Source of the DNA: Plasmodiophora brassicae
Lineage: Eukaryota
NCBI GenBank assembly: GCA_036867785.1
Contig: CP145426.1
Span: 727,441-747,440 of the forward strand
Length of the DNA stretch: 20,000 nucleotides
Reading direction: 5' to 3'
A model generated the notes under the pieces. That model saw only the letters and a list, made by a program, of their open reading frames with translations. It made no database searches and was not told where the DNA came from. The position numbers and the translations under genes were made by a program. This document shows, in pieces, positions 1,046-20,000 of this stretch (positions are counted from its first letter, which is position 1; each line of letters begins with the position of its first letter).

Positions 1046-3307
1046 CTATGCCTGCGACGACAACGACGACGGCGATGGTTCGGTTTGGTTGCCGTCGGCA
1101 GACTTCACAGCAGCAGCGTCCTTGTCGTCGCCGCCGCCCGGTTCCTGCGACAGGGCGGCGGCGCCCTTGTCAGCCTCGGCGACGACGACGACGGCCTGAT
1201 CCGGCGGCGGCTCAGGCACGGGCGGCGCGGGTATCGACGTGCGCTTCGACAGGTTCCTGGACTTGAGGTCGAACGACTGCCCCAGGGACGCCGGCCTGGC
1301 GTGCCCGGCCGGGTCCGTGTCGGCGGGGGCGGCGAACCAGCCGACGACGGAGCCGATCAGCGGCACCGCCCGGATGAGGTCGATGGCGCTGTAGTGCCGC
1401 TGCTGCATCTCCTCCAGGTGCGTCTGCGCCTCGACGATCCCCGTCTGCAGGGCGTCGGACAGCAGGGCGATGACCTCGTCCGGGTAGTCGATCTGGGCCT
1501 GCGTCCGGGCGACCAGGTCGTAGATCGACCTGGCGACCTGGTCGTCGTCGTCGGCCGGGCACGGGTCCGGCACCGTCAGGATGGCGACGCCGACGCACCC
1601 GTCGTCGGTGATGCACCCGCGGAACACGTTCGACAGGTCGAACAGGCGCCGCGCCAGGCAGTCGTTCAGGCCGTTGACGGCGTCGCGCGCGTCGGCGCCG
1701 TCGGGCAGGAACGGCGGCACCAGGCGGATCACGCCGATGCCGACGGGCGACGACGACACGCGGGCGCCGTCGACCCAGTCGAACTCGGCGGACGCGTCGA
1801 CCAGGGCGCGCAGCGCGTCCCGGCAGGCGATGCCGGCCGCCATCCGGTCGACCTGCGCCGACACGCCCGCCAGGAACGCGTCGACGACGGGGAACAGCGC
1901 CGACGCCGACGACGCCGACGCCAGCGGCTGGACGAAGACGACGATGTCGTCGGTGAGGTCGTCGAGCGCGACCGACCAGCCGAGCTGCGCCAGGGCGCCG
2001 GCGACGCGCTCCAGGATGATGCCGTTCAGCGTCGTGCTCCTCAGGGACAGGTCGCCGACGCCGGCCGCGACGACGACCTGGAACGACGGGCGCACGTCGG
2101 TATGCGACGACCAGCGCAGCGCGAACTGGTCGCCGTACGTCGTGGCCGCGCGCATCGCCGCGTACCGCACCTGAACGACGCACCCGGGTCAGGCGACGAC
2201 GACGACGAACGGGCGGCCCAGGCGGACGTACGAGCTCGACGTGCGCGTCGGCGCTGCGTTGCAGGGGGCCGGCCAGGGCGGTGACGGCGATCCAGAGCGG
2301 GGCGGCGACGGTCCAGGGGGCGGCGGCGTCGGCGGCGACGGCGGGCGGCGCGGGTGCGGCGCCGACGCGCACCATGACGACGACCGTGTCGGGGCCGGCG
2401 CCGAACGACTGCCAGTCGCGGCCGGGGCGCACGACGAACGAGTCGGCGGCGTCGAGCGCGGTGACGACGACGTCGGGGCGGTCGTCGGCGGCGGCGAAGC
2501 GCAGGTCGGCGCCGTGCACGTGGATCCAGACGCCGTGCGCGTCGCACAGCGCCTTCAGGCGCACGAGGTCGTCGTCGCGGTGCACGAGGCGCCCGTCCCG
2601 GTTCAGCGTGGTGGGCACGGCGGCGAACACGATCAGCGGCATGGCGCCCTGCGACTCGTCGTCGTCGATGGCGCGCGACAACGCGTCCAGGTCGAGGCCG
2701 GCGACGCCGGTCGTCGTCGCGGGAACCGTGACAGGGACGACCTTGATGCACTTGTCGGGCGGCAGCAGCAGGCGGCGGCAGGCGCGGCGCAGGGCGTCGA
2801 CGTACGGGAACGTGTCGGAGATGTATACGACGGGGAGGCGGTGGGCGCCCAGGCACGGGTACCCCTCGGTGTCGAGCAGCGGGCAGCGCTGGCGCAGCGC
2901 CTGCAGGACGGCGACGTGCAGCATGGCGACCGGGGATTCACCTGGCGCGCGCGTTAGGAACCCGACGACGTGCAGGGCGCAGGTGCGTTCGCGTCTTACA
3001 GATGTGCGCGACGAACGCGTCGTCCAGGTGCAGCAGGTCGTTCATCAGCGCGTTGCACGAGGCCGACATGGCCGACGCCAGGTGCGACAGGGCGGACCAG
3101 CGGTCCCGCAGGCGATACGCGATCCTGGCCGTGCCGGTCGCGTCAGAGCGCCTGTCCGACGACGATCACAACGACGATGTGTGCGAGAGCGTACTGTGCG
3201 GCCGTGACGTCGTCGCCATCGTCAGGGCCGATGTCGAACGCGGCCAGCTCGGCCACGACGTCGGCGTCCGCCACCGCCCAGTGGATCACGCTATCGTCGA
3301 CCACCAT
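1046..3307 (-). CDS. PDXDC1: PDXDC1-like pyridoxal-dependent decarboxylase domain protein, ~699 aa; exons 3307..3195, 3151..3000, 2941..2232, 2170..1046
   Basis: Group II decarboxylase-like core (LDLDALSRAIDDD...PLIVFA...DDLVRLKALCDAHGVWIHVHG...ADSFVVRPG). The C-terminus LIRAVPLIGSVVGWFAAP...GQSFDL resembles the PDXDC1 motif as I recall it (LRQIPVVGSVLNWFSP...GRTFNL). Three GT-AG introns (43, 58, 61 nt) keep the frame. Confidence 0.8.
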
Positions 3308-4468: not shown

Positions 4469-4710
4469 CGCCTACCGTACGTTCGCGCTTCGTGGCGCGC
4501 CTGACTGGTGAAGATGCCTCAGGGACTACGTCCGGTAGAGAGGAGCCGTAATTGGTGGTCCACTATGTAACTGTGTGCCAGCAGCTGTTTGGGATATGGC
4601 GCCGCAAGAGTACGCCATGACGTAATAAACCACCTGTGACTGCGAGGCCAGCAAGGCTATCGTCTCTGCTGACCCGTCTCCCATCGGCAGAATTCGGACC
4701 GAGACGAGGC

Positions 4711-6756
4711 ATGACGACGCTGCTGCCACAGAGCGCCGGCTGGATGGTCGTCATCGTCTTCTCGGTGACGTTCGGCGTCCTGACCATCGCAATCGTGAAA
4801 ATCCAAGAGGTGATTGTCGGGCGGCCGCAAAGCTTCGACGTCTTCAATGTGGCGGGTCGAGCGGCAGGCATCGGCCTTAGCGCCTCTGTCGTCGTCTGCA
4901 AGTGGACGTGGGCGGCCACCCTCCTGCAGAGCTCGACGGTGACCTGGAAGTACGGACTGTCGGGGGCGTACTGGTATGCGGCCGGCGCCGCCATCCAGAT
5001 CACGCTGTTCGCCGCCGTGGCCGTCAAGGTCAAGGAGCGTGCGCCGAACGCCCACACCGTCCTGGAAATCGTTCGGGCACGATGGGGAACCGCGGCGCAC
5101 CTCGTGTTTCTCGTGTTCGCCCTGATGACGAACCTGATCGTGACCGGCATGCTGCTGCTGGGCGGGTCTGCGGTCGTCAACGCCGTCTGCGGCATGCCGC
5201 TCGAGGCGGCAGCCTTCCTGATCCCGATCGGCGTGACGGCCTACACATTAGTCGGAGGCCTGCGCGCCACCTTCATCGCCGGGTACCTGCAGAGCGCCAT
5301 CATTTTCATCATGCTGACCGCCTTCGTACTCGTTGTGAGTCATTCTCATATTGGCGTACGAATGGTGGCGTGGCGGGATTGCACGTTGACCGCCCAGCAC
5401 GCACAGGTCTACACTGGCGAAACGATCGGGGGCGCCGCTGGCATGTACGACAAGGTGGCCGCGCTGCAGCCGGATCCTATCGCCAGCACATTCCTCCAAG
5501 GCAACGCTGGCAATTCCTACCTGACGGTAACCCATATTCACGCTTCCCGGCAACCCCGCATGTCCCCCGTCTGATCAGCGCTTTGCACGTGCCAGATGTC
5601 GAGCACGAACGGGCTCATGTTCGGCGTGATCAACGTAGTCGGCAATTTCGGGGCGGTCTTCATGGACAGCTCGTACTGGTCGTCGGCGATGGCGGCCGAC
5701 TCGAGCCGCACCGCATCGGTATCGTTCCTGGTGGCCAGCGTATACTGGTTCTCGATTCCGCTGGCCATGGCCACCAGCCTCGGGTTGGCATCACGCGCTC
5801 TGCAACTGCCGATGACGGTCGACCAAGTCGACTCAGGGCTGGCGCCCGCGTTCGCTGCCATCTTCCTGCTTGGCCGGTCGGGCGGCTGGATGATCCTCAT
5901 CATCGTGTTCGCGGCAGTCGCCAGCACCGGTGCCGCCGAGCTCATGGCCGTCTCGTCCGTGATCACGTACGACGTGTACAAGGCGTACGTGAACCCGGCG
6001 GCCACCTCCGAGCGGCTCCTGCAGGTCTCCAAGGCATCCTGCGCCGTGTTCGGCGCCCTGATGGGCGTCTTCGGCCTTGTCCTGAACGAGACCGGCGTCA
6101 GCCTGTCCTACGTGTACCTCGGCATGGGCATCTGTATCGGGTCGGCCGTGGCACCCGTCGTCTGCGCGATCCTCTGGCGCCAGTGTACGGGCCTGGCCGC
6201 CGTCTGCGCCGCCGTCGCCGGCCTCGTGCTGGCCGTCGCCAGCTGGATCTGGACCGCCCACGCCGTCTATGGGACCGTGAACCTGCAGACCACCGGTGCC
6301 GACTACCCGATGCTGGTCGGCAACGTGGTCGCCCTGGTATCGTCGACGGTGTTGACGGTGGCCTTGACACTGATCCGGCCCGATCCCGGAACGGACTGGT
6401 CGTCCACGATGAGTATCGCGGACACGGCGGACGACGACGTTCAGCGTCGCGACAACTCGGGAACCGACGTCGCTGCCGACGATCGGGCGTGGATGGCGCC
6501 GACGTCGACTGCGGGCGTCGAAGACTTTCGACAGGAATGGGTGCGGTCGGTGCGATGGTCAGCCTTCATCACGTTCGTGATGGTGCTGGGCGTGCCTATC
6601 CCGTTGTACCTGGCCGACTGGGTCTTCACGAAACCATTCTTCATCGCATGGATCGTGACGACGTGCCTGTGCGCCATCGCGTCTGCCCTGCTTGTCATTG
6701 GCATCCCTCTCTGGGACTGCTACCGCCTGATCAGCCGAATCTCGACGGACCTCTAG
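4711..6756 (+). CDS. DUR3: DUR3-like urea active transporter (sodium:solute symporter family), ~634 aa; exons 4711..5334, 5407..5526, 5596..6756
   Basis: DUR3-family motifs LPQSAGW, WTWAATLLQSS, YGLSGAYWYAAGA, APNAHTVLEIVRARWG, YTLVGGLRATF, GNAGNSYLT|MSS, NVVGNFGAVFMD, AELMAVSSVITYDVYKAYVNP. Introns 5335-5406 (gtgagt...cag) and 5527-5595 (gtaacc...cag). Confidence 0.92.
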
Positions 6757-7909: not shown

Positions 7910-8194
7910 TGGACCACGTTCGGCCATACCGTGCCGTGCACGAACTTGGCCGGTATCATTACTTGCAGCAGCAAAGTTCAAGGGCATCGGCCAGGAAGCG
8001 CTGCGGAAAATGTGGCACAATTCGGAAAGCGGTCATCGAATGCGAGCCTCTCTGGTTCGCCATTGGTTGGGCTGGCATTTTCGAAGGGATTAATGTCGAA
8101 ATCCGCATGTCTGATTCCACGATGACAATGGACGACGTCCTTAGCCACTTGGACCACGTTCGGCCATACCGTTCCGTGCACGAACTTGGCCGGT
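7910..8194 (+). repeat. 45-bp direct repeat pair, 7910-7954 and 8150-8194
   Basis: tggaccacgttcggccataccgt(g/t)ccgtgcacgaacttggccggt occurs twice, 240 bp apart, with one mismatch. Confidence 0.95.
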
Positions 8195-9200
8195 CAGCAA
8201 ATGTATTTTATTACCCACTTAATATTTGCATTGAGCAAATGGGCGGCTTGTCGCCTCGACCCACAACTGTTTCCCGAGGAATTGACCGCTCTCTTACTCA
8301 GCGGCATCCCCACCATGTGCAAGTGGTCCGCGTCGCTCGAACTGGTGAGTGAGATCGCACACTACTTGCGAATTCTGCGGGTCCCGAGCCACCATAGATC
8401 GCTGAGAAAGTGTGTCTCGTACCTCCTCGACAAAGAGGTGAAGGGCTCGGGCGGCTGCATGCCCAAAGGCAAGCATGTCAAGTCGACGTTCTATTTGCGC
8501 GCGATGCCAATCGATATATACGTCTATGGCGGGGCTGCTCAGTTTGGTGAACAATTGGGTGCGAACGCCCGGAAAACGTACTGGTACCAAGAAGGCTACG
8601 GTTTCCCGGCGTTCGTATCCGGTTGTTCATCGAACTGCGTCTCTAGCAGCCCTACCACTGACGTGCATATCGATTGGTATCGCAACTAGAACGTCGACTT
8701 GACATGCTTGCCTTTGGGGATCCAGCCGTCCGAGCCCTTCACCTCTTTGCCGAGGAGGTACGAGACACACTTTCTCAGCGATCTATGGTGGCTCGGGAAT
8801 TCGCAAGGAGTGTGCGATCTCACCCACCAGTTCGAGCGACTCGGACCACTTGCACATGGTGGGGATGCTGAGCAAGAGAGCGGCCAATTCCTCGGGAAAC
8901 AGTTGTGAATCGAGGCGACAAGCCGCCCATTTGCTTAATGCAAATATTAAATGGGTTATAAAATACATTTGCTGACCGGCCAAGTTCGTCCACGGAACGG
9001 CCGGTATGATCGAACGTGGTCCAAGTGACTAAGGACGTCGTCCATCGTCATCGTGGAATCAGACATGCGGATTTCGACATTAATCCCTTCGAAAATGCCA
9101 GCCCAAACAAGGGCGAACCAGAGAGGCTCGTATTCGATGACCGCTTTCCGAATTGTGCCACATTTTCCGCAGCGCTTCCTGGCTGATGCCCTTGAACTTT
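7973..9200. repeat. ~1.23 kb imperfect spacer-less palindrome (fold-back inverted duplication), centre at 8585/8586
   Basis: 7973 aaagttcaagggcatc... is the reverse complement of ...gatgcccttgaacttt 9200. The match continues inward to tggt|acca. The same peptides appear on both strands (ORFs 8186..8689+ and 8783..8983-; 7858..8352+ and 8956..9303-). Confidence 0.97.
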
Positions 9201-9401
9201 TCTGGTAGGGCCACAGGTCGGGCATACCATGTACGGTTCGTACGGAATGCCACAGCCGGGAGCAAACGCGAAAAGACTTGCCAGGTGGTGCTGAGCCAGA
9301 CATTGACGGAGTTCATCAGCTTTAATTTGTCGGGCCCACGTCTCGGGATCTGGCTGAGTCACAGCATTCATGTAAACGAACTCGGAGCGCCTCGTCGACA
9401 A
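8586..9401 (-). pseudogene. Frameshifted gene remnant with paired CxxC motifs and a helical domain (mirror copy at ~7973-8585, + strand)
   Basis: Reading across frameshifts gives CPTC...RCGKCG...EPLWFALVWAGIF...YFITHLIFALSKW...LFPEEL...LELVGEIAH. Both arms carry frameshifts. Confidence 0.6.
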
Positions 9402-12710: not shown

Positions 12711-13498
12711 GACACTGCCGTCGCCAGTTACGACGCTGCCGGTCGTCAATGCCGCCCACTACATCGCGATATTCGACTAAGTTCGCGTCTGCAGGCTGCG
12801 GGTCCCCAACGACCCGTCGTGCTGCTCGCCGTGCTTACGTCCGCGTCGAAGTCACCGCCGAGCACCGACATGGGCCAACGGGATCACCTGCAACGCGACC
12901 ATAAGGGGGCCTGCTGGGCTTCTGTGCATCTCCTGGTCAGGAGCGTGTCGTTGCCAAGATGCCCCATCGCCTGATACGGCTGCCTGCCCTGCTTGCGTCC
13001 GCGCCGACGTCGCTGCGACCGGGCCAACACATCGTCTACTAGGACAGCGGAACGTGATCATCTTCCTTAAGCGCGCCCAATATCTCTGGGTGCGATTCCA
13101 GGACAGGTATAGTTTCTCGGCTGATGCGATATGACCTTCGCCTCTGACATGTGATGAACAGGCTAAGCCAGCTGCCGTGGGACGTCGCTTGTCCATCATG
13201 GGAGCCTTCAAGCAGCCGTGGTTCTGCCAAATTGTCATTCTGCTCCACACGTGACGCGGTCGACTGCCCCACCCTAGCCGCCGGATGCAATTCGCCGTCT
13301 GCCCTGAACCGTCCTGCGATGACGGGCACTGGTGCAAATGCGTCGCCGGCCCCCCATCTGCCTGGTCGGCTGCCTCTGCCAACTCTGCTGGTTGCCCAGC
13401 AGGGTAGCGGTGCCCAGCGCCCGTTGCTGCCGGAAGCCTCGCGGACACCTGACTTTCGACAACGATCGTGCAGCATCCTTGACGCTATATCCCGATAA
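12711..13498 (+). pseudogene. Subtelomeric family X, most complete copy (copy 3), with one in-frame stop and intron 13107-13161
   Basis: One frame reads TLPVVNAAHYIAIFD*(TAA 12778-12780)VRVCRL...CPACVRADVAA...KRAQYLWVRFQDR, then splices in frame to LSQLPW...LPTLLVAQQ...ISR*. Confidence 0.6.
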
Positions 13499-13559
13499 CC
13501 GTGGCCGTTCAATACACGCTGAACATGTTGACATGCGCGTACACCCACACGTGAAGAGC

Positions 13560-14150
13560 GTAACCAAGGACCAGTACATTCGTATGTGTGAGACCCGCTG
13601 CCCGCAACGGGCGGAGGGTGCCGTGTTGCTCCTCGACGTAAGCGGGCGTTAATACATTTTCAGAATTTCAGTAAGGTGCAGGTGCCGTACATGTACGAGT
13701 TGATGACAATAAGACCAACCGAAGGGGATCGTAGCCAAGGAACAATACTCTCGATCGGATGTCTCAGACCCGCTATCCGCAACGGGGAGACAGTGCCGAA
13801 TTGCCCTTCGTCGTAATCGGGAGCGTTAACACACTTTACGAATTTCAATACGGTGCAGAGGCCATCCCTTTACAAGTTTACGACAATAAGACAAACCTAA
13901 AGGGAAGGTAACCGAGGAACAATACACTCGGAGGTGTGTGGCCCGCTGTCCGCAACGAGGAGAGAGTGCCGAATTGCTCCTCGTCGTAACCGGGAGCGTT
14001 AACACATTTTAACAATTTCAGCAAGATGCAGGGGCCAAACGTTTACGAGTTCCCGACAAACGTAAAGGGAACGTAACCGAGGAACAATACAGTCGGATGT
14101 GTGGGACCCGCTGTCCGCAAAGGGTGGAGAGTGCCGAATTTCTCTTCGCG
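13560..14150. repeat. Degenerate tandem repeat, ~3.5 units of 165-177 bp
   Basis: Unit anchors gta(a/g)cc(a/g)agga at 13560, 13731, 13908 and 14073. Conserved blocks cccgct..ccgcaa, gtgccg, gcgttaa and aatttca. More AT-rich than the flanks. Confidence 0.92.
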
Positions 14151-14299: not shown

Positions 14300-15128
14300 C
14301 GTCGCCGACGACCCGGCTACGCTGCCTGTCGTCAACGTCGTCCACGACATCGCCGTAAACGGTTCAACGGGTGTTCTGCGCCGTCGCACATCGCGGGTCG
14401 CCGACGACATGTCGTGCCTGCCTGACCTGCTTGCGTCCCCGCCGCCGTCTCCGCCGACCATATCGTCACGGGCCAAGGCGTCCCCAACGAAGGCAACGCA
14501 ACCTGCTGCGGCTCAGTACCTCTGGATGATGAATTGTATTCAGAACAGGTAAGTAGTATCGCGTATGACAAGCAACCATGGGCTGAGACATGTGCTGGAC
14601 AGGAGACGGCAGCCGTCGATGCCGGGCGGTGCCAGGCGGTCCGACCACCTGCTCCACACCTGGGGCTATCGCATGTCGCGTATCCCCGACGACAGGTCCA
14701 CGCCGACGTCGCCGCCGACCATATCGGCACGTGTAAAACGCATCCCCGGGGAAGGCAATGCAACCTGCTGCTGGTGTGTCAACGCGCTCAGTACCTCTGG
14801 ATGAAGTATATCCAGAACAGGTACGCCGTAGCGCGTATGACCAGCGACCATGACCTCTGACATGTGATGGACAGGAGACGGCAGCCGTAGCTGTACCGCA
14901 TCGTCAGGCTTGCGACCACCTGGTCCCACGCCTGAGGCGACGCCTACCCCCTGTCGATCGCTGCGGTTGGTCGTTCGCGTCCCTGCCATAAACCCGTCAT
15001 TCCATGTCGGCCACAGCGAGCAAGGGCGCCGCCAGCGCCACCGTCCGCAAGCCCAGCTGCGCATGCCTACGCTGCTGGTTGCCCAACGTCCATTTCTACC
15101 GGCCGCCACGCGAACGCCTGCTATCTGA
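14300..15128 (+). pseudogene. Subtelomeric family X remnants, copies 4 and 5 (tandem duplication, ~260-270 bp offset)
   Basis: cgccgaccatatcg...gaaggcaa.gcaacctgctgc...gctcagtacctctggatga...cagaacag|gta...acatgtg.tggacag|gagacggcagccgt occurs twice (introns 14549-14602 and 14821-14874). Peptides QRAQYLWMKYIQNR and MPTLLVAQ match copy 3. Confidence 0.7.
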
Positions 15129-15454
15129 TGACGATCGCCACCATCCCGGCCGGCGTATCGCGGCAAACAGGACCGTTCAATACAGGCAGAACCAGTTGTC
15201 ACGCGTGTACACCGGCCATGCATGGCTTCCTGGCGTCAGCTGGTGCCGACCAGAGCAGGGCGGGACGCCGTCCGTCCCCAGCGTGTTCATCGACGTTGCG
15301 CCCGTCCCTTCATGTCGACGCATATGAAACCCATCCCATGACGTTGCCATGCCTGGTTAGGCCAAGCAATGCCTACCCTTACAATCGACCATCGACGCTC
15401 TCGATGCTGCACCTCAAACAGACCCGTCCCGTGTGTTAAGTTACAAATACAAGT

Positions 15455-18400
15455 TTATGAACGGATACCATTGCATCTGTAGAAGAGCAGCCTGTAGACG
15501 CGCTTGTGGAGCAGGCTAGCCACTTGGGACTCTCCATACCGCACTAGGCGATTGGTGTCGCAGAAGACCCAGGAACCACCGGGTTGCTTGACCCAGGATA
15601 TATAATGCCCTTCATCGTGCCCAGCCAATTGGGTGTCACTACCCTGGTAATCGACCAGGCCAACGAGATCGAAGTACGCTCTGCCAGTCTGAAACGTCAC
15701 TTCTGGCACCACGTCCTGCCCACAGGAGATATCAGACATCCAAGAGATCCACCCATCATCATCGCTTGATGTCCTGCACCTACCACCGTGGTCCTACGAC
15801 GCGCCATGCTGATCTGCGCTCCGTCAGGGCCGGGTTTCTGGACGATCTCCATCGGATCCTGCCGAACAATCAACAGTGACCCCGGCGTTGGACTCCTGGC
15901 CATGTGGCGGAACGTTGTCGACCGGTGCTCGACATCGTGACCAGGTTGGCAGGGAACGTTGGAGGTGCACCTCCTGGTGATCGTCTCCGACTGCTCCCCG
16001 ACCAGAACCGTTGAGAGTTTGACTCGCCGGTGGCAGCCCTGCAGCATGACGACGGGCTGCTGACAAGGCGGGCGCGACGAGGCATGGCCGCAGGTGGCAC
16101 ACGTATCAACCACGTGTTCGACGAACTCGACGAGACTGCCAACAATCGGCTGTCCATCAGCGCCGACCATACGGTATGCCTCCATCTGCGATAGCAGTTC
16201 CAGGACGAAGTCGTCTGCGTCGTGCTGATGTCCGGCAGGAAACGACCGTGTCGCCCGGTCGGCGTTGCCCAGGCTGCTGATGAGCTCAACGAGCGCGTAC
16301 GACGCCACGTTCGCATCCAGGCGGGGGTTCATCACCTGGTTGAACAGGCCCACCCAGGGCGCGTCGCCCGACACGCGGTGCCATCCAGGCAAACGACGCA
16401 GGATATGGACCGGTGCAATGGCGAAGCAAATCTGCCGGCAGACGCCGGCCGCATCCACGTTCGATATGCCCGCTGGAAGTAGCGTGTCAGCACCACACTC
16501 CTGAACGTCAACTTCAGCAGCGTCGATGACAATTGGATCGCGTTTCGTACCTGCGCAGGAGGTTCCGACCCTTGGGCGGGATCGCTGTGGGCGATTCGTT
16601 CGGTGCGGCTCGAACGGTCGACAGCAGGTCGTTCGTGGACCTGCAGTTATTGCACGCATGTCAGCTGTCTCCCTCGCCACAGTACCGGCGTTGGCAATTG
16701 GCAAACCTGTCTGCGCTTCCTCGCTGGGCGTTTCGCGAGGAGAGCCACTTGAACCCTCCTCCGCTTGCAAGTAAGCTTGGGTGCCTGCAATGTCACGGGG
16801 GTTCAGTCTACACCCCGCTCGCAATACCTTCTAACCCAAATCACCCTGTACTCCGACGACCTGGAGGACGACTCGCAAACGTCGTTCGTGTCCTGGGACG
16901 GTGCGTCGCTGTCGTCGTCGCTCGACATCGGGTCCACATCCATCGTACTCTGTTCAGGCCCACAGTGGATCAGCAGGATTGCACAATCAAGGCGAATATC
17001 ATCAGTACACGTACAGTTCGTCGGCACCTGATTGCCGACCGGTTCTGCAGTAGTGCTGCCCGCCGACTGGTTACTGTCCTGCGTACGGGGCGGCGCTCGT
17101 CACCGGCGTCGTCTCCTGCACCGCCGTCCTCAGATCCGTTGGCACCGGCAACGTCGATGCCGCTTCGCCGCCTTCGGACGGCGTCCAGGTACATCGGCAC
17201 AAGCCGGGCAACGAGCGACGCGATCCGCTCAACGACGACATCGTTCTGGCGCCTCGACGTCAGGACGATGAGTTCGATCGCCACCAGCAAGACGTCGTAG
17301 GTGTGCTTCGTCGCGCACCAGACCTCGTTGAGCTTGGCGCCGACAGCGCCGATCAGCATGAGTTCGTGGGCGAAGTCGTCCCACTCAACCGCGCCTGCGT
17401 CCAGCGACCTGAGGACCGCCGACATGTCGACGACGTGGTCATCGCCGTCCCGCTCGTCAGCGTTCCTCTTCTCACCCACGTACGTCAACACTCGTCGACC
17501 GAGGCCGCGCGCATGGAAGATCATAAGGATGATCCTCTGCTGCAGGCCCCACTTGGACAGGTCCACGGGTGACGGCCACAGACCAGACACGCTCTTGACG
17601 AGTTTGCTGACCTGCGTCGACATCTGCCGGGGCGACTTCGACAGTTCAATCGTGTCGTCGACGCAGGGCCTCTGAACCAGCACCGCGTTGTGTGGATCGC
17701 CCAGGAACCCGTCCCAATCGACCAAGACCGGGGTGCCTTTCCCGTCCTTCCTCGAATGCATCACGCCCATGATCAGGGCCATGGCTTCCCACGGCCAATG
17801 CCGGCGATGCTTGTTCCCGTGGAAGGCGGACGGCAGCGGCAGCTCCGCCCACGACCCTTGAGCCTGCGCCAGGGTGACCGACCGCGACGACAGCGGGACC
17901 TTGCTGATCTGCAGCGATCCAGCTGACGTCAACGGTACGATCAGGTCGGGATCACAGAGTGGCGGGACCAGCATGACGACCTGCTGGAGGATGTTCTTGA
18001 ACTCGGCGGTAGGCACCCATCGACCCGCCGGACGCTGGCGCAGTGCACGACGCTGGGCCGGGCTGCTGTCGCCGGACGCCATGAGCATGCGGAGATAGGC
18101 GTCGGTGACTCGCTCCGGAGGCGCATCAACAAGGACGACGGGAGGATGTACGACACGGCCATCCCAGCGTAGACGCAACGACACGTGAATGACATCACGC
18201 CCCAGGGCTCGGCGCCTGCCTTGTACCCTCGTCACCAACGCGCGCATGACGTCGGCCTCTCGGAAACGACTAAGCGGCACGATGGACATGACGTCACGCC
18301 AGAGCGCTACGTGCGGCAGCGTGTCCACGCCGGGCGACATCCAATTGAATGCCACCCACTCGGCGAACGTGATGTGTTGCATCGACGCGACTGAGGGGTC

Positions 18401-19516
18401 CAGCACGGATCCAGGGCTCGCCAGGCGATGCAGGGCGGCCGGTGACGGAAGGAACGACTTGAACAGATAGTCGTAGTCCTGGTCCAGGTCTGGGCGATCA
18501 AGCGCATGGCTGACGTACGGCGCGAGGACCTTCCTGGACCGCAGCTGGTCGAACGCGTACGCGCCCTCTGTCTGAAGCAGGTTGAGCGCCACAGCGGCTG
18601 GCGTCAACATGTCCGAGAGCATCGACGATAACGTTCGAAACCAGGAGCGGACCAGGTAGGTCAACGCATGCCGGCACCCCTTAACCGAAATCCGAAGGAT
18701 CGTCGACATCACGTCGGCGTTGTCGAACCCATGGATAAAGTTCAGGAACTGGCCCTCGTGAATGCGCAGGTTTAAGGGGTCCATGAAAGCTGGATCGATG
18801 AACACCCTGCCGGCCGACATGCAGAAATTGACGTAATCCAGGCGCGTCCCGGGCGACATCCACACGCCGACATTGCTGTCAGGGGTACCGCCCTGGAAGA
18901 ACCGGCTTGCCGAGATGAACGAACCGTCGAGCAGTGCGTTCAGCAGGTCCTCCATGAACTGCAGGCAGTTCATCTGCCGCCGATCAATGTTCGTGACGAA
19001 CGGTGATCGGCGCCCGCCCTCGATGGGTCGGAACATGGCCCGATACATCAGACGGGGGAAGTGGGCGTACTGCTCATGTTTCCGCAGAAGATGGGCCCAG
19101 AAGTCGTGCGCCGCGATGCACAGGATCGTGTCGTCGTCGTTCAGGTGGGCAACTTCGCGCCACATCGACTGGAACACAGCGCCGCGCATCGACAGGTTTG
19201 CGATGTACTCGCAGCGGTGAACGACGGGGACCCTTTCGCGCATCATCTGGCGGCACCATCGTATTCTCTGCGTCATCGACCTGTGAACCGGCTTGAGGGC
19301 TCGCTTCACGTCCGTCTTGCGGATCGGCCCGTACTTCCTCAGAGACCGCGGCAACGAAGCGATGAATTTACGAGTGTTACCGCGATCGAAAGACGCCCGC
19401 ACACAGGCGCTGAATGTGGCCAGGTGCGAGTAGCGCACAGGCGCCGCCAGTATTCGTGATCGATCTCTTGTGCGTTGAGACACTGTCGCATTGTACGCTG
19501 ATCTCGCTGAAGCCAT
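15455..19516 (-). CDS. Telomere-adjacent ~1250-aa protein: large unknown N-terminal region, NLS-like exon, C-terminal ubiquitin-specific protease (peptidase C19); exons 19516..17015, 16949..16845, 16784..16707, 16640..16551, 16500..15784, 15715..15455
   Basis: USP Cys box (GISN...ICFAIAPVHIL), QHDADDF box, Zn-finger-type CATC...RCTSNVPC, and His box (FDLVGLVDYQG...GHYISWVK...WVFCDT...LLFYR). Five GT-AG introns of 65, 60, 66, 50 and 68 nt are all phase 0 and give an uninterrupted frame. The USP call is strong. Fusion to the upstream 834-codon exon is inferred from splice signals. Confidence 0.72.
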
Positions 19517-19648
19517 TGTCGAGCCGCACCGCGTTTTACATCCCCCAAACGCGGCAACCTCACCGATCGGGTAATAGGAGTGGGATCGCGCAGGAGCGCC
19601 GCGGTTGGCGTCTCGGTCGCGTAGAGCGCTGTAGTCGCGACAGACGGC

Positions 19649-20000
19649 TTAGGGTTTTTTTTAGGGTTTTAGGGTTTTAGGGTTTTAGGGTTTTAGGGTT
19701 TTAGGGTTTTTAGGGTTTAGGGTTTAGGGTTTTTTAGGGTTTTAGGGTTTTAGGGGTTTTTAGGGGTTTTAGGGTTTTAGGGTTTTAGGGTTTTAGGGTT
19801 TTAGGGTTTTAGGGTTTTAGGGTTTTAGGGTTTTAGGGTTTTAGGGTTTTAGGGTTTTAGGGTTTTAGGGTTTTAGGGTTTTAGGGTTTTAGGGTTTTAG
19901 GGTTTTAGGGTTTTAGGGTTTTAGGGTTTTAGGGTTTTTTAGGGTTTTAGGGTTTTAGGGTTTTAGGGTTTTTTTAGGGGGCTTAGGGTTTTTTTAGGGT
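19649..20000 (+). repeat. Telomeric repeat array (TTTTAGGG)n with T-run and G-run variants; right chromosome end
   Basis: About 350 bp of mostly TTTTAGGG running to the window end, with the G-rich strand oriented 5'->3' toward the end. Confidence 0.99.

What the first reader, a model, noticed from the sequence alone, without database searches (positions are those of the whole stretch)
15455..19516. Telomere-abutting gene fusing a large unknown domain, an NLS-like exon and a USP deubiquitinase: candidate telomere-linked element
Seen: the 848-aa ORF, a small acidic ORF and two USP pieces join through five canonical phase-0 introns into one 1250-aa protein. One 26-codon exon encodes a bipartite-NLS-like peptide (KRRRVQVALLAKRPARKRR). 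USP catalytic Cys, His and Asp candidates are present, and this is the only large intact gene in ~13 kb of decayed subtelomere. Known: chromosome-terminal gene families exist (yeast Y' helicase, fungal telomere-linked RecQ), and some transposons carry cysteine proteases such as Ulp1 or OTU. Inference: this may be an undescribed terminal gene family or selfish element encoding a nuclear DNA-binding deubiquitinase. I do not recognise this architecture.
Basis: partly seen in the sequence, partly recalled or inferred. Interest (0 to 1): 0.82.

Follow-up and report, generated by a model that had tools for sequence, protein, structure and literature searches.

The report
Clubroot USP gene cut by telomere
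This is a real, expressed, six-exon gene of the clubroot pathogen that fuses an unknown helical domain to a divergent deubiquitinase, and it looks like an ordinary gene that a chromosome end has cut into in this isolate rather than a telomere-linked element.

Summary
The 848-aa ORF (16970-19516, minus strand) joins five downstream exons through five GT..AG, phase-0 introns (65, 60, 66, 50 and 68 nt) into a 1250-aa product. Spliced contigs show all 5 junctions, including 17015/16949, in 4 of 4 public runs laid, from 4 studies.

The last 872 aa match an NCBI record, "USP domain-containing protein [Plasmodiophora brassicae]", with the same introns. The gene is therefore already annotated, but with a start at Met379.

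The USP assignment rests on Pfam UCH at threshold (24.4 against 23.9 bits) and a clear His box. No tool recognises the Cys box.

The N-terminal domain belongs to a small uncharacterised family: one 990-aa metagenome protein and 8 short fragments.

The telomere-linked element reading is not supported. I found no terminal repeats, no transposase, and no second protein cluster of similar length. In 3 of 4 runs the contigs continue past 19648 with unique sequence, exactly where the window's telomere starts.

Most likely a terminal truncation healed by a telomere, specific to this isolate. Both structure predictions failed, so the N-domain's function stays unknown.

The parts
19649..20000 (+). Telomere array (TTTTAGGG)n with some irregular units, G-rich strand running 3' to the end of the window
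   Evidence: Sequence read. TRF gives period 8, 38.5 copies, 19659-19972. The same repeat is reported for P. brassicae in PMC11191646 and PMC6823432 (passages).
19517..19648 (-). 132 nt (44 codons) between the telomere and the first ATG. It is open in the ORF's frame right up to the telomere; the first in-frame stop is the TAA of the first telomeric unit.
   Evidence: The tblastn alignment to P0003 runs 21 codons into this stretch (that piece alone has E=1.2). RNA-derived contigs cover it and continue past 19648 with other sequence.
17015..19516 (-). Exon 1, 834 codons. N-terminal domain of unknown function, predicted mostly helical, ending in an Arg-rich and acidic Gly/Asp tail.
   Evidence: ORF. 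Homologues P0003-P0011. Contigs cover 17015-19648. Pfam, NCBIfam, PHROGs, PDB sequences and the ESM atlas give nothing.
17480..17545 (-). 66-nt in-frame segment (residues 658-679) absent from the only X10 contig over this place. Probably an isolate deletion polymorphism; its ends are GT..AG on the + strand, not on the sense strand.
   Evidence: (joint 17479/17546, X10 only, 1 of 4 runs). Homologue P0007 also lacks about this segment.
16950..17014 (-). Intron 1, 65 nt, GT..AG. This is the junction that joins the 848-aa ORF to the rest of the gene.
   Evidence: Joint 16949/17015 in 4 of 4 runs.
16845..16949 (-). Exon 2, 35 codons, acidic and Ser/Asp-rich
   Evidence: the same in P0002.
16707..16784 (-). 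Exon 3, 26 codons, basic (42% K+R), with two basic clusters 11 residues apart in a bipartite-NLS-like arrangement
   Evidence: Joints on both sides in 4 of 4 runs. No localisation predictor was run.
16551..16640 (-). Exon 4, 30 codons, linker
15784..16500 (-). Exon 5, 239 codons. First part of the USP-like domain: candidate Cys box (Cys946 of the 1250-aa product), an acidic box at 1016-1023, and two Cys pairs (1059-1062, about 1103-1109) where USP fingers bind zinc.
   Evidence: Motif positions. The Pfam UCH match on P0002 starts at residue 629 (profile position 78), so the Cys box itself is unmatched. Atlas features give UCH clusters at 0.94.
15455..15715 (-). Exon 6, 86 codons plus TAA. USP His box (His1201) and the following Asp1217/Asn1219.
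   Evidence: Pfam UCH E=1.5e-4 on this exon alone, below the cut-off. Alignment to the USP14 His box (E about 0.5).

Best explanation
The locus is a cellular gene of Plasmodiophora brassicae that is lineage-restricted and, as far as could be seen, single-copy.

Product. One spliced mRNA of six exons encodes a basic (pI 9.5) protein of at least 1250 aa. It has a helical N-terminal domain of about 780 aa from a small uncharacterised family, an acidic linker, a bipartite-NLS-like basic exon, and a C-terminal divergent USP (papain-like, clan CA) domain.

Inferred working. The NLS carries the protein into the nucleus. The N-terminal domain selects the partner or substrate. The USP domain removes ubiquitin (or a ubiquitin-like modifier) using Cys946, His1201 and Asp1217/Asn1219.

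Telomere. The adjacency is not a property of the gene. In this isolate the chromosome appears to have been broken inside, or just upstream of, the 5' part of the transcription unit and healed by telomere addition at 19649. In other samples the same sequence continues with unique DNA.

Shown: exon structure, transcription, the fusion, the telomere junction, and its absence in other samples. Inferred: nuclear targeting, catalytic activity, the role of the N-domain, and that coding sequence rather than only 5' UTR was lost.
For: Splicing and transcription. 5 of 5 junctions are seen in 4 of 4 runs from 4 studies. One contig crosses all five and another covers 17015-19067.

Identity. P0002 (NCBI, P. 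brassicae, 872 aa) equals residues 379-1250 apart from one K/Q difference. All four runs also carry that difference.

USP domain.
- Pfam UCH on P0002 scores 24.4 bits against a cut-off of 23.9.
- The His box aligns to USP14.
- Atlas features give UCH clusters at 0.94, and 10 of the 10 best hits share that family or clan.

The N-domain is real coding sequence. P0003 aligns at 25% identity over P0001 residues 8-527 (E 9e-32), and 8 fragments are 30-69% identical.

Not element-like.
- Only one cluster of similar length exists.
- There are no copies elsewhere in the window and no flanking repeats.
- P0001 matches no Pfam family.

Telomere truncation.
- Contigs of X3, X10 and X11 match up to 19648 and then share one non-telomeric continuation of 127-238 letters, which is absent from the window.
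- The ORF frame is open from 19648, and the first 30 continuation letters read on in that frame without a stop (my reading).
- The homologue carries about 330 more N-terminal residues and its alignment passes the ATG.

Differences from the RNA contigs within the CDS are 4 synonymous and 4 non-synonymous (rows outside the CDS and 2 from a minor X3 contig were dropped).
Against: - No tool recognises the Cys box: Pfam profile positions 1-77 are unmatched, the PDB search gave 0 hits at E<=10, and Pfam found no UCH on the Cys-box pieces. The domain could be inactive.
- Both AlphaFold models failed (mean pLDDT 44.3 and 35.6), so neither fold was checked.
- Contigs carry no strand. The cover upstream of about 18190 is on contigs of lower mean depth in 3 of 4 runs and could belong to another or an antisense transcript.
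- 44 open codons can arise by chance in DNA of this G+C content; the window has chance frames of hundreds of codons.
- Four loose ends (19380 in X6, 18113 in X10, 17024 in X3, 15158 in X3 and X6) suggest that near-identical pieces of this region exist elsewhere. That weakens 'single copy'.
- The source organisms of fragments P0004-P0011 are unknown. They could be paralogues.
- Copy number in a whole assembly could not be tested.
Confidence: 0.6

Rival explanations
1. One reading: a member of a chromosome-end gene family or selfish element that sits next to telomeres by its own biology, spreading among subtelomeres in the manner of yeast Y' or fungal TLH genes.
For: - In this assembly the gene abuts a telomere.
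- RNA-derived contigs share near-identical pieces of the locus and then diverge to sequence not in the window: 19055-19380 at contig depth 59 against 22 next to it (X6), around 18113-18187 (X10, X3), and about 16910-17024 with 3 substitutions and 1 insertion (X3).
- Eight short homologous fragments exist. At least one (P0004) ends in what looks like a frameshifted tail, as a decayed paralogue would.
- The surrounding region is patchily duplicated.
Against: - In 3 of 4 runs the locus continues with unique sequence where the window's telomere starts; in the fourth run it diverges at 19380.
- There is one protein cluster only at comparable length.
- No copy lies in the other 15 kb of this subtelomere.
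- No terminal repeats and no helicase, transposase or RT family were found.
- Scans of metagenome and viral contigs found no relatives.
Confidence: 0.15
2. The main product is a shorter protein (the 872-aa database model or less) made from an internal start near 18200-18400. On this view the upstream 378+ codons are rarely expressed or are a decaying remnant, and the telomere truncation has no consequence.
For: - The NCBI model starts at Met379.
- In X3, X10 and X11 the contig that carries exons 1-6 ends at 18179-18216, and the contigs upstream have 2.5 to 10 times lower mean depth. The tool warns that contig depth is a poor measure, so this is only a weak hint.
Against: - In X6 one contig covers 17015-19067 at a single depth.
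- Residues 8-378 are conserved with P0003 and with fragments P0004-P0006 at 40-63% identity, and the HMMER match spans the Met379 boundary (133-525).
- The contig breaks coincide with variant sites at 18141 and 18149, which alone can break contigs.
Confidence: 0.3
3. The USP-like domain is a pseudo-enzyme, that is a ubiquitin-binding or scaffolding module without isopeptidase activity. This reading is compatible with either account of the locus.
For: - Pfam UCH matches only profile positions 78-252.
- The Cys-box region gives no UCH hit even at E<=10 and no PDB sequence hit.
- The spacing between the candidate oxyanion Asn and the Cys is two residues longer than I recall for canonical USPs (recall, not a call).
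Against: - A Cys lies at the expected distance (about 70 residues) before the acidic box.
- The His box and a following Asp/Asn are intact.
- The exon is kept in frame and the gene is expressed.
Confidence: 0.25
4. The telomere join at 19649 is an assembly artefact, for example a telomeric read or small telomeric contig attached to the wrong place. In that case the isolate's real sequence continues as in the other samples.
For: - The junction is unique to the window among the samples seen.
- One published P. brassicae assembly attached small telomere-bearing contigs to chromosome ends by overlap (PMC11191646, passages). I do not know whether the window comes from that assembly.
Against: - The array is long (at least 350 nt) and correctly oriented.
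- Karyotype polymorphism among isolates is reported (PMC6823432, passage).
- No reads of the window's own isolate could be identified or laid.
Confidence: 0.1

Closest known systems
Ubiquitin-specific proteases (USP/UBP; Pfam PF00443 UCH, MEROPS family C19 by recall)
   Same: Same order of landmarks: candidate Cys box, acidic box about 70 residues later, two Cys pairs, then His box and Asp/Asn. Pfam UCH reaches the cut-off on the spliced protein. The His box aligns to USP14. Atlas neighbours are UCH clusters.
   Different: The Cys box is not recognisable by profile. No relative of the domain was found at E<=0.01 in the word-indexed search. The N-terminal 780-aa domain matches no known family.
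NCBI record 'USP domain-containing protein [Plasmodiophora brassicae]' (P0002, 872 aa)
   Same: Same gene: identical over residues 379-1250 except one K/Q difference, with the same five introns.
   Different: The record starts at Met379. It omits 378 conserved N-terminal codons that are open in the window and covered by RNA-derived contigs. Its contig is 747,440 bases long. Where the gene sits on that contig is unknown to me.
Telomere-linked gene families
   Same: A large ORF reads away from a telomere within about 130 nt of the repeats in this assembly.
   Different: No helicase or any other Pfam family in the N-domain. Adjacency is not kept in the other samples. No evidence of many copies.
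Transposon-borne cysteine proteases (Ulp1 in some Mutator-like elements, OTU in some Helitrons; recalled)
   Same: A papain-like cysteine protease domain is fused to a large protein of unknown function.
   Different: The protease family differs (USP). There is no transposase or helicase family, no terminal repeats and no extra copies.
Metagenome protein P0003 (990 aa, JGI 'hypothetical protein') and fragments P0004-P0011
   Same: They share the N-domain: P0003 is 25% identical over about 540 residues, with conserved blocks around residues 155-200 and 300-330 of P0001.
   Different: P0003 has about 330 further N-terminal residues and no USP part within its ORF. It has no Pfam family. Its contig could not be fetched.

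Membership tests
USP deubiquitinases (Pfam PF00443) | Whole-protein score at or above Pfam's gathering cut-off | tested here: met
   P0002 (the spliced product from residue 379) scores 24.4 bits against a cut-off of 23.9, E 2.7e-5. This is marginal. Exon 6 alone scores 21.8-21.9 bits, below the cut-off, and exon 5 alone gives no hit.
USP deubiquitinases (Pfam PF00443) | Cys box with the catalytic cysteine | tested here: inconclusive
   A Cys (946) lies about 70 residues before the acidic box. However, profile positions 1-77 are unmatched, Pfam finds no UCH at E<=10 on the Cys-box pieces, and the PDB search gave 0 hits.
USP deubiquitinases (Pfam PF00443) | His box with catalytic His and following Asp/Asn | tested here: met
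   Pfam profile positions 197-253 are matched by exon 6. The alignment to USP14 places the Gly-His-Tyr of the query on that of USP14 (E about 0.5).
USP deubiquitinases (Pfam PF00443) | USP fold (thumb, palm, fingers) | tested here: inconclusive
   The single-sequence AlphaFold2 model has mean pLDDT 35.6, so no fold search was run on it.
USP deubiquitinases (Pfam PF00443) | Isopeptidase activity on ubiquitin | not testable with these tools
   Needs a bench assay.
Telomere-linked gene family (Y'/TLH-like) | Adjacency to the telomere kept in other isolates or at other chromosome ends | tested here: not met
   In 3 of 4 runs the contigs continue past 19648 with one shared non-telomeric sequence. 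In the fourth run the contig leaves the window's sequence at 19380. The continuation is absent from the window.
Telomere-linked gene family (Y'/TLH-like) | Several copies in one genome | tested here: inconclusive
   Only one cluster of 466-1484 aa was found and there is no copy in the window. Against that, loose ends hint at partial near-identical copies.
Telomere-linked gene family (Y'/TLH-like) | Helicase domain | tested here: not met
   0 Pfam families on P0001 at E<=0.1.
Transposable element | Terminal inverted or direct repeats around the coding unit | tested here: not met
   Only chance-size matches of 18-28 nt at 71-89% identity were found in 14900-19660.
Transposable element | Transposase, integrase, RT or replication helicase | tested here: not met
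   No family in Pfam, NCBIfam or PHROGs for P0001 or P0003.
Classical bipartite nuclear localisation signal | Two basic clusters separated by 10-12 residues (consensus recalled) | tested here: met
   Read from the exon 3 translation: two Arg, 11 residues, then Arg-Lys-Arg-Arg. This is a pattern only; no predictor or localisation test was run.

The most novel reading that the evidence does not exclude
The N-domain-plus-USP gene may be the best-kept member of a subtelomeric family in plasmodiophorids, whose pieces are copied among chromosome ends. The partial near-identical copies hinted at by the loose ends, and the 58-69% identical frameshifted fragments, would be its traces. That would make it a protist counterpart of Y'/TLH-type end-associated genes, built around a nuclear deubiquitinase instead of a helicase.
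Probability: 0.12. Interest if true: 0.65.

Novelty: new member of a known kind. Interest (0 to 1): 0.3.

Why it matters
Three modest points follow.
1. The deposited gene model for this P. brassicae USP protein appears to be N-terminally short by at least 378 conserved codons. The true protein carries a large domain of a family with no annotation anywhere.
2. The window gives a base-exact example of a chromosome end that differs between isolates of an unculturable crop pathogen. The telomere starts inside a transcribed, possibly coding, region. This bears on how chromosome-length polymorphism arises in this species.
3. If the USP domain is active and nuclear, it is a candidate regulator of chromatin or protein turnover in the parasite.

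None of this overturns current knowledge. The striking telomere-linked element reading is unlikely.

Tried and rejected
Structure prediction
- AlphaFold2 of the N-domain with a 10-sequence alignment gave mean pLDDT 44.3.
- AlphaFold2 of the USP part as a single sequence gave 35.6.
- Both models are too poor to use, so I ran no fold search on either.

Family and structure-sequence searches on the N-domain
- ESM atlas: no usable hit.
- PDB sequence search with the A1 profile: only chance-level hits, E 0.32 and 1.
- NCBIfam and PHROGs: 0 families.

Searches for relatives
- Metagenome contigs with P0003 and with P0001, and viral contigs with P0003: pattern matches, but no relative by tblastn.
- The USP-region homologue search found only P0002 itself.

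Sequencing runs
- No listed holder is on record as RNA. That the laid runs are RNA is my inference from the spliced contigs.

Tools not available
- No whole genome for the window.
- The listing of cluster members switched off.
- As a result, the copy number and the sources of P0004-P0011 stay open.

Readings considered and dropped
- A splice acceptor or trans-spliced leader at 19648. The window has AA, not AG, before the exon on the sense strand, and the continuation is 127-238 letters long.
- A sense-strand intron at 17480-17545. Its ends are canonical only on the opposite strand.

Other
- Rfam: no family in the window.
- Paper searches: 'Plasmodiophora brassicae' with 'deubiquitin' gave 12 papers, and with 'ubiquitin carboxyl-terminal hydrolase' gave 5. 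Going by the listings only, none concerns this gene.
- Supplements of the genome papers were not opened. They may hold gene positions that bear on the locus.
Full report
Where the window comes from

The window ends in about 350 nt of (TTTTAGGG)n with the G-rich strand running outward. The only protein of comparable length related to the 848-aa ORF is P0002. NCBI names it "USP domain-containing protein [Plasmodiophora brassicae]", and it is identical over the shared part. TTTTAGGG is the telomere repeat reported for P. brassicae (PMC11191646 and PMC6823432; passages read). The window is therefore a chromosome end of a P. brassicae isolate. All four runs laid, and P0002, carry G where the window has T at 15837 (Lys1147 to Gln). 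So the window's isolate is not the one behind those data.

The observation

The ORF 16970-19516 (-) exists.

I asked for public runs that hold 15300-19650. Twenty of the 24 listed runs hold half or more of its words. I laid four of those, from four studies (X3, X10, X11, X6), on 14800-19650.
- All five predicted junctions appear in 4 of 4 runs, each with GT..AG on the minus strand.
- An X11 contig of 2382 letters runs from 15492 to 18182 through all five.
- An X6 contig covers 17015-19067 and crosses the 17015/16949 joint.

The runs are labelled RNA only by a guess. In X11, however, the depth of the bins that hold introns falls exactly in proportion to intron length (my arithmetic on table 2). 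No unspliced contig lies there, so these are transcripts.

The canonical exons give 834+35+26+30+239+86 = 1250 codons, all phase 0, with introns of 65, 60, 66, 50 and 68 nt. The deposited protein P0002 uses the same five introns but starts at Met379.

What the parts are

C-terminal domain:
- Exon 6 alone gives Pfam UCH at E 1.5e-4, below the cut-off.
- The spliced P0002 reaches 24.4 bits against a cut-off of 23.9, matching profile positions 78-252.
- The His box aligns to USP14.
- Language-model neighbours of residues 548-872 of P0002 are UCH clusters at 0.94.
- The landmarks stand in USP order: candidate Cys946, acidic box 1016-1023, two Cys pairs, His1201, Asp1217/Asn1219.
- No tool recognises the Cys box itself, and the single-sequence AlphaFold model was useless (pLDDT 35.6).

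I file this domain as a divergent USP whose activity is unproven.

Linker. Exon 2 is acidic. Exon 3 is 42% Lys+Arg, with two basic clusters 11 residues apart. That is an NLS-like pattern, but it was not tested.

N-terminal domain:
- About 780 residues match nothing in Pfam, NCBIfam, PHROGs, PDB sequences or the atlas.
- An exhaustive HMMER search of 1.84 billion representatives gave 9 hits at E<=0.001 and none below 1e-30. They are P0003 (990 aa, JGI metagenome, "hypothetical protein") and eight fragments of 52-239 aa at 30-69% identity.
- P0003 aligns over P0001 residues 8-527 (25% identity, E 9e-32). That span crosses the Met379 start of the deposited model, so the upstream 378 codons are conserved coding sequence.
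- The AlphaFold model built with these ten sequences is mostly helical but unreliable (pLDDT 44.3).

Nothing points to DNA binding.

The telomere

The first telomeric base is 19649. The 132 nt between it and ATG 19516 are open in the ORF's frame, and the first in-frame stop is the TAA of the first telomeric unit.

In X3, X10 and X11 (three studies) contigs match the window up to 19648 and then continue for 238, 130 and 127 letters. They share one non-telomeric sequence, which is absent from the window even with 3 mismatches. Its first 30 letters read on in the same frame without a stop (my reading). In X6 the contig leaves the window's sequence earlier, at 19380.

The homologue P0003 has about 330 more N-terminal residues, and its tblastn alignment runs 21 codons past the ATG. 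That short piece alone is not significant (E 1.2).

Taken together, the chromosome of the window's isolate most likely ends inside the 5' part of a transcription unit that is longer in other isolates. That would be a terminal deletion healed by telomere addition. Karyotype polymorphism among isolates is on record (PMC6823432, passage).

The limits of this reading:
- Contigs carry no strand.
- 44 open codons can occur by chance in DNA of this composition.
- I could not lay reads of the source isolate, so a misjoin remains possible.

Is it an element or a terminal family?

Against:
- One protein cluster only at comparable length.
- No P0001-like piece elsewhere in the window.
- No flanking repeats.
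- No transposase, RT, integrase or helicase.
- No relatives in the metagenome or viral contig scans.
- Adjacency to the telomere is not shared by the other samples.

For:
- Several contigs share near-identical pieces of the locus and then diverge to sequence not in the window: 19055-19380 in X6 at a higher contig depth, around 18113-18187 in X10 and X3, and about 16910-17024 in X3 with 3 substitutions and an insertion.
- The homologous fragments include one with a frameshift-like tail.
- The neighbourhood is patchily duplicated.

These hints keep the family reading alive at about 0.12-0.15. A whole-assembly search, which I could not run, would settle it.

Other variation

The only X10 contig over 17480-17545 lacks those 66 nt (residues 658-679, in frame). 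The ends are canonical only on the opposite strand, so I read it as a deletion polymorphism. A minor X3 contig skips 62 nt inside exon 5.

Within the CDS, the main contigs differ from the window at 8 places, 4 synonymous and 4 non-synonymous. I dropped rows outside the CDS and two rows from the minor X3 contig. The numbers are too small for a test.

In 3 of 4 runs the contigs upstream of about 18190 have lower mean depth, which weakly suggests an additional internal start.

Verdict

The gene is a divergent USP with an orphan N-terminal domain. It is already in the databases under a shortened model. Its contact with the telomere looks like an isolate-specific truncation rather than the mark of a telomere-linked element.

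Noticed in passing
window 14490-15213 (+): A spliced + strand unit converges on the USP gene. It has a GT..AG intron at 14822-14874. The exon-end-plus-intron module is duplicated 272 nt apart (14528-14621 and 14800-14893), and different runs join one or the other copy to the same acceptor. The piece 14871-15158 lies on contigs of very high depth (up to 1419 in X6) that then leave the window's sequence at 15158, so a near-identical, highly expressed copy probably sits elsewhere. I found no convincing ORF.
   Followed up: partly
window 7969-9204: A near-perfect palindrome: four adjoining inverted-repeat pairs, 94-96% complementary, with arms of about 530 nt (7969-8499 against 8681-9204) around a 181-nt centre. 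ORFs there have no Pfam family.
   Followed up: no
window 13559-14148: A tandem array of a 173-nt unit, 3.4 copies at 77% matches. In addition, 13133-13545 shares diverged segments with 14846-15213, which indicates a local segmental duplication.
   Followed up: no
window 4621-6756 (+): Two adjacent open frames both match the sodium:solute symporter family (PF00474): profile positions 22-191 and then 209-406. This is one transporter gene split by an intron or a frameshift.
   Followed up: no
window 2200-3041 (-): An ORF in the 70-74% G+C part of the window has a sub-threshold match to pyridoxal-dependent decarboxylase (PF00282, 22.7 bits against a cut-off of 27).
   Followed up: no
window 16274-16335 (-): A minor X3 contig (depth 7.5) skips 62 nt inside exon 5 with GT..AG ends on the sense strand. 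This is an alternative splice that would shift the frame within the USP domain.
   Followed up: no
window 16910-17024: An X3 contig (depth 18.2) covers intron 1 unspliced, with 3 substitutions and a 1-nt insertion, and then diverges at 17024. It is either a partial paralogue or a second haplotype in that sample.
   Followed up: partly
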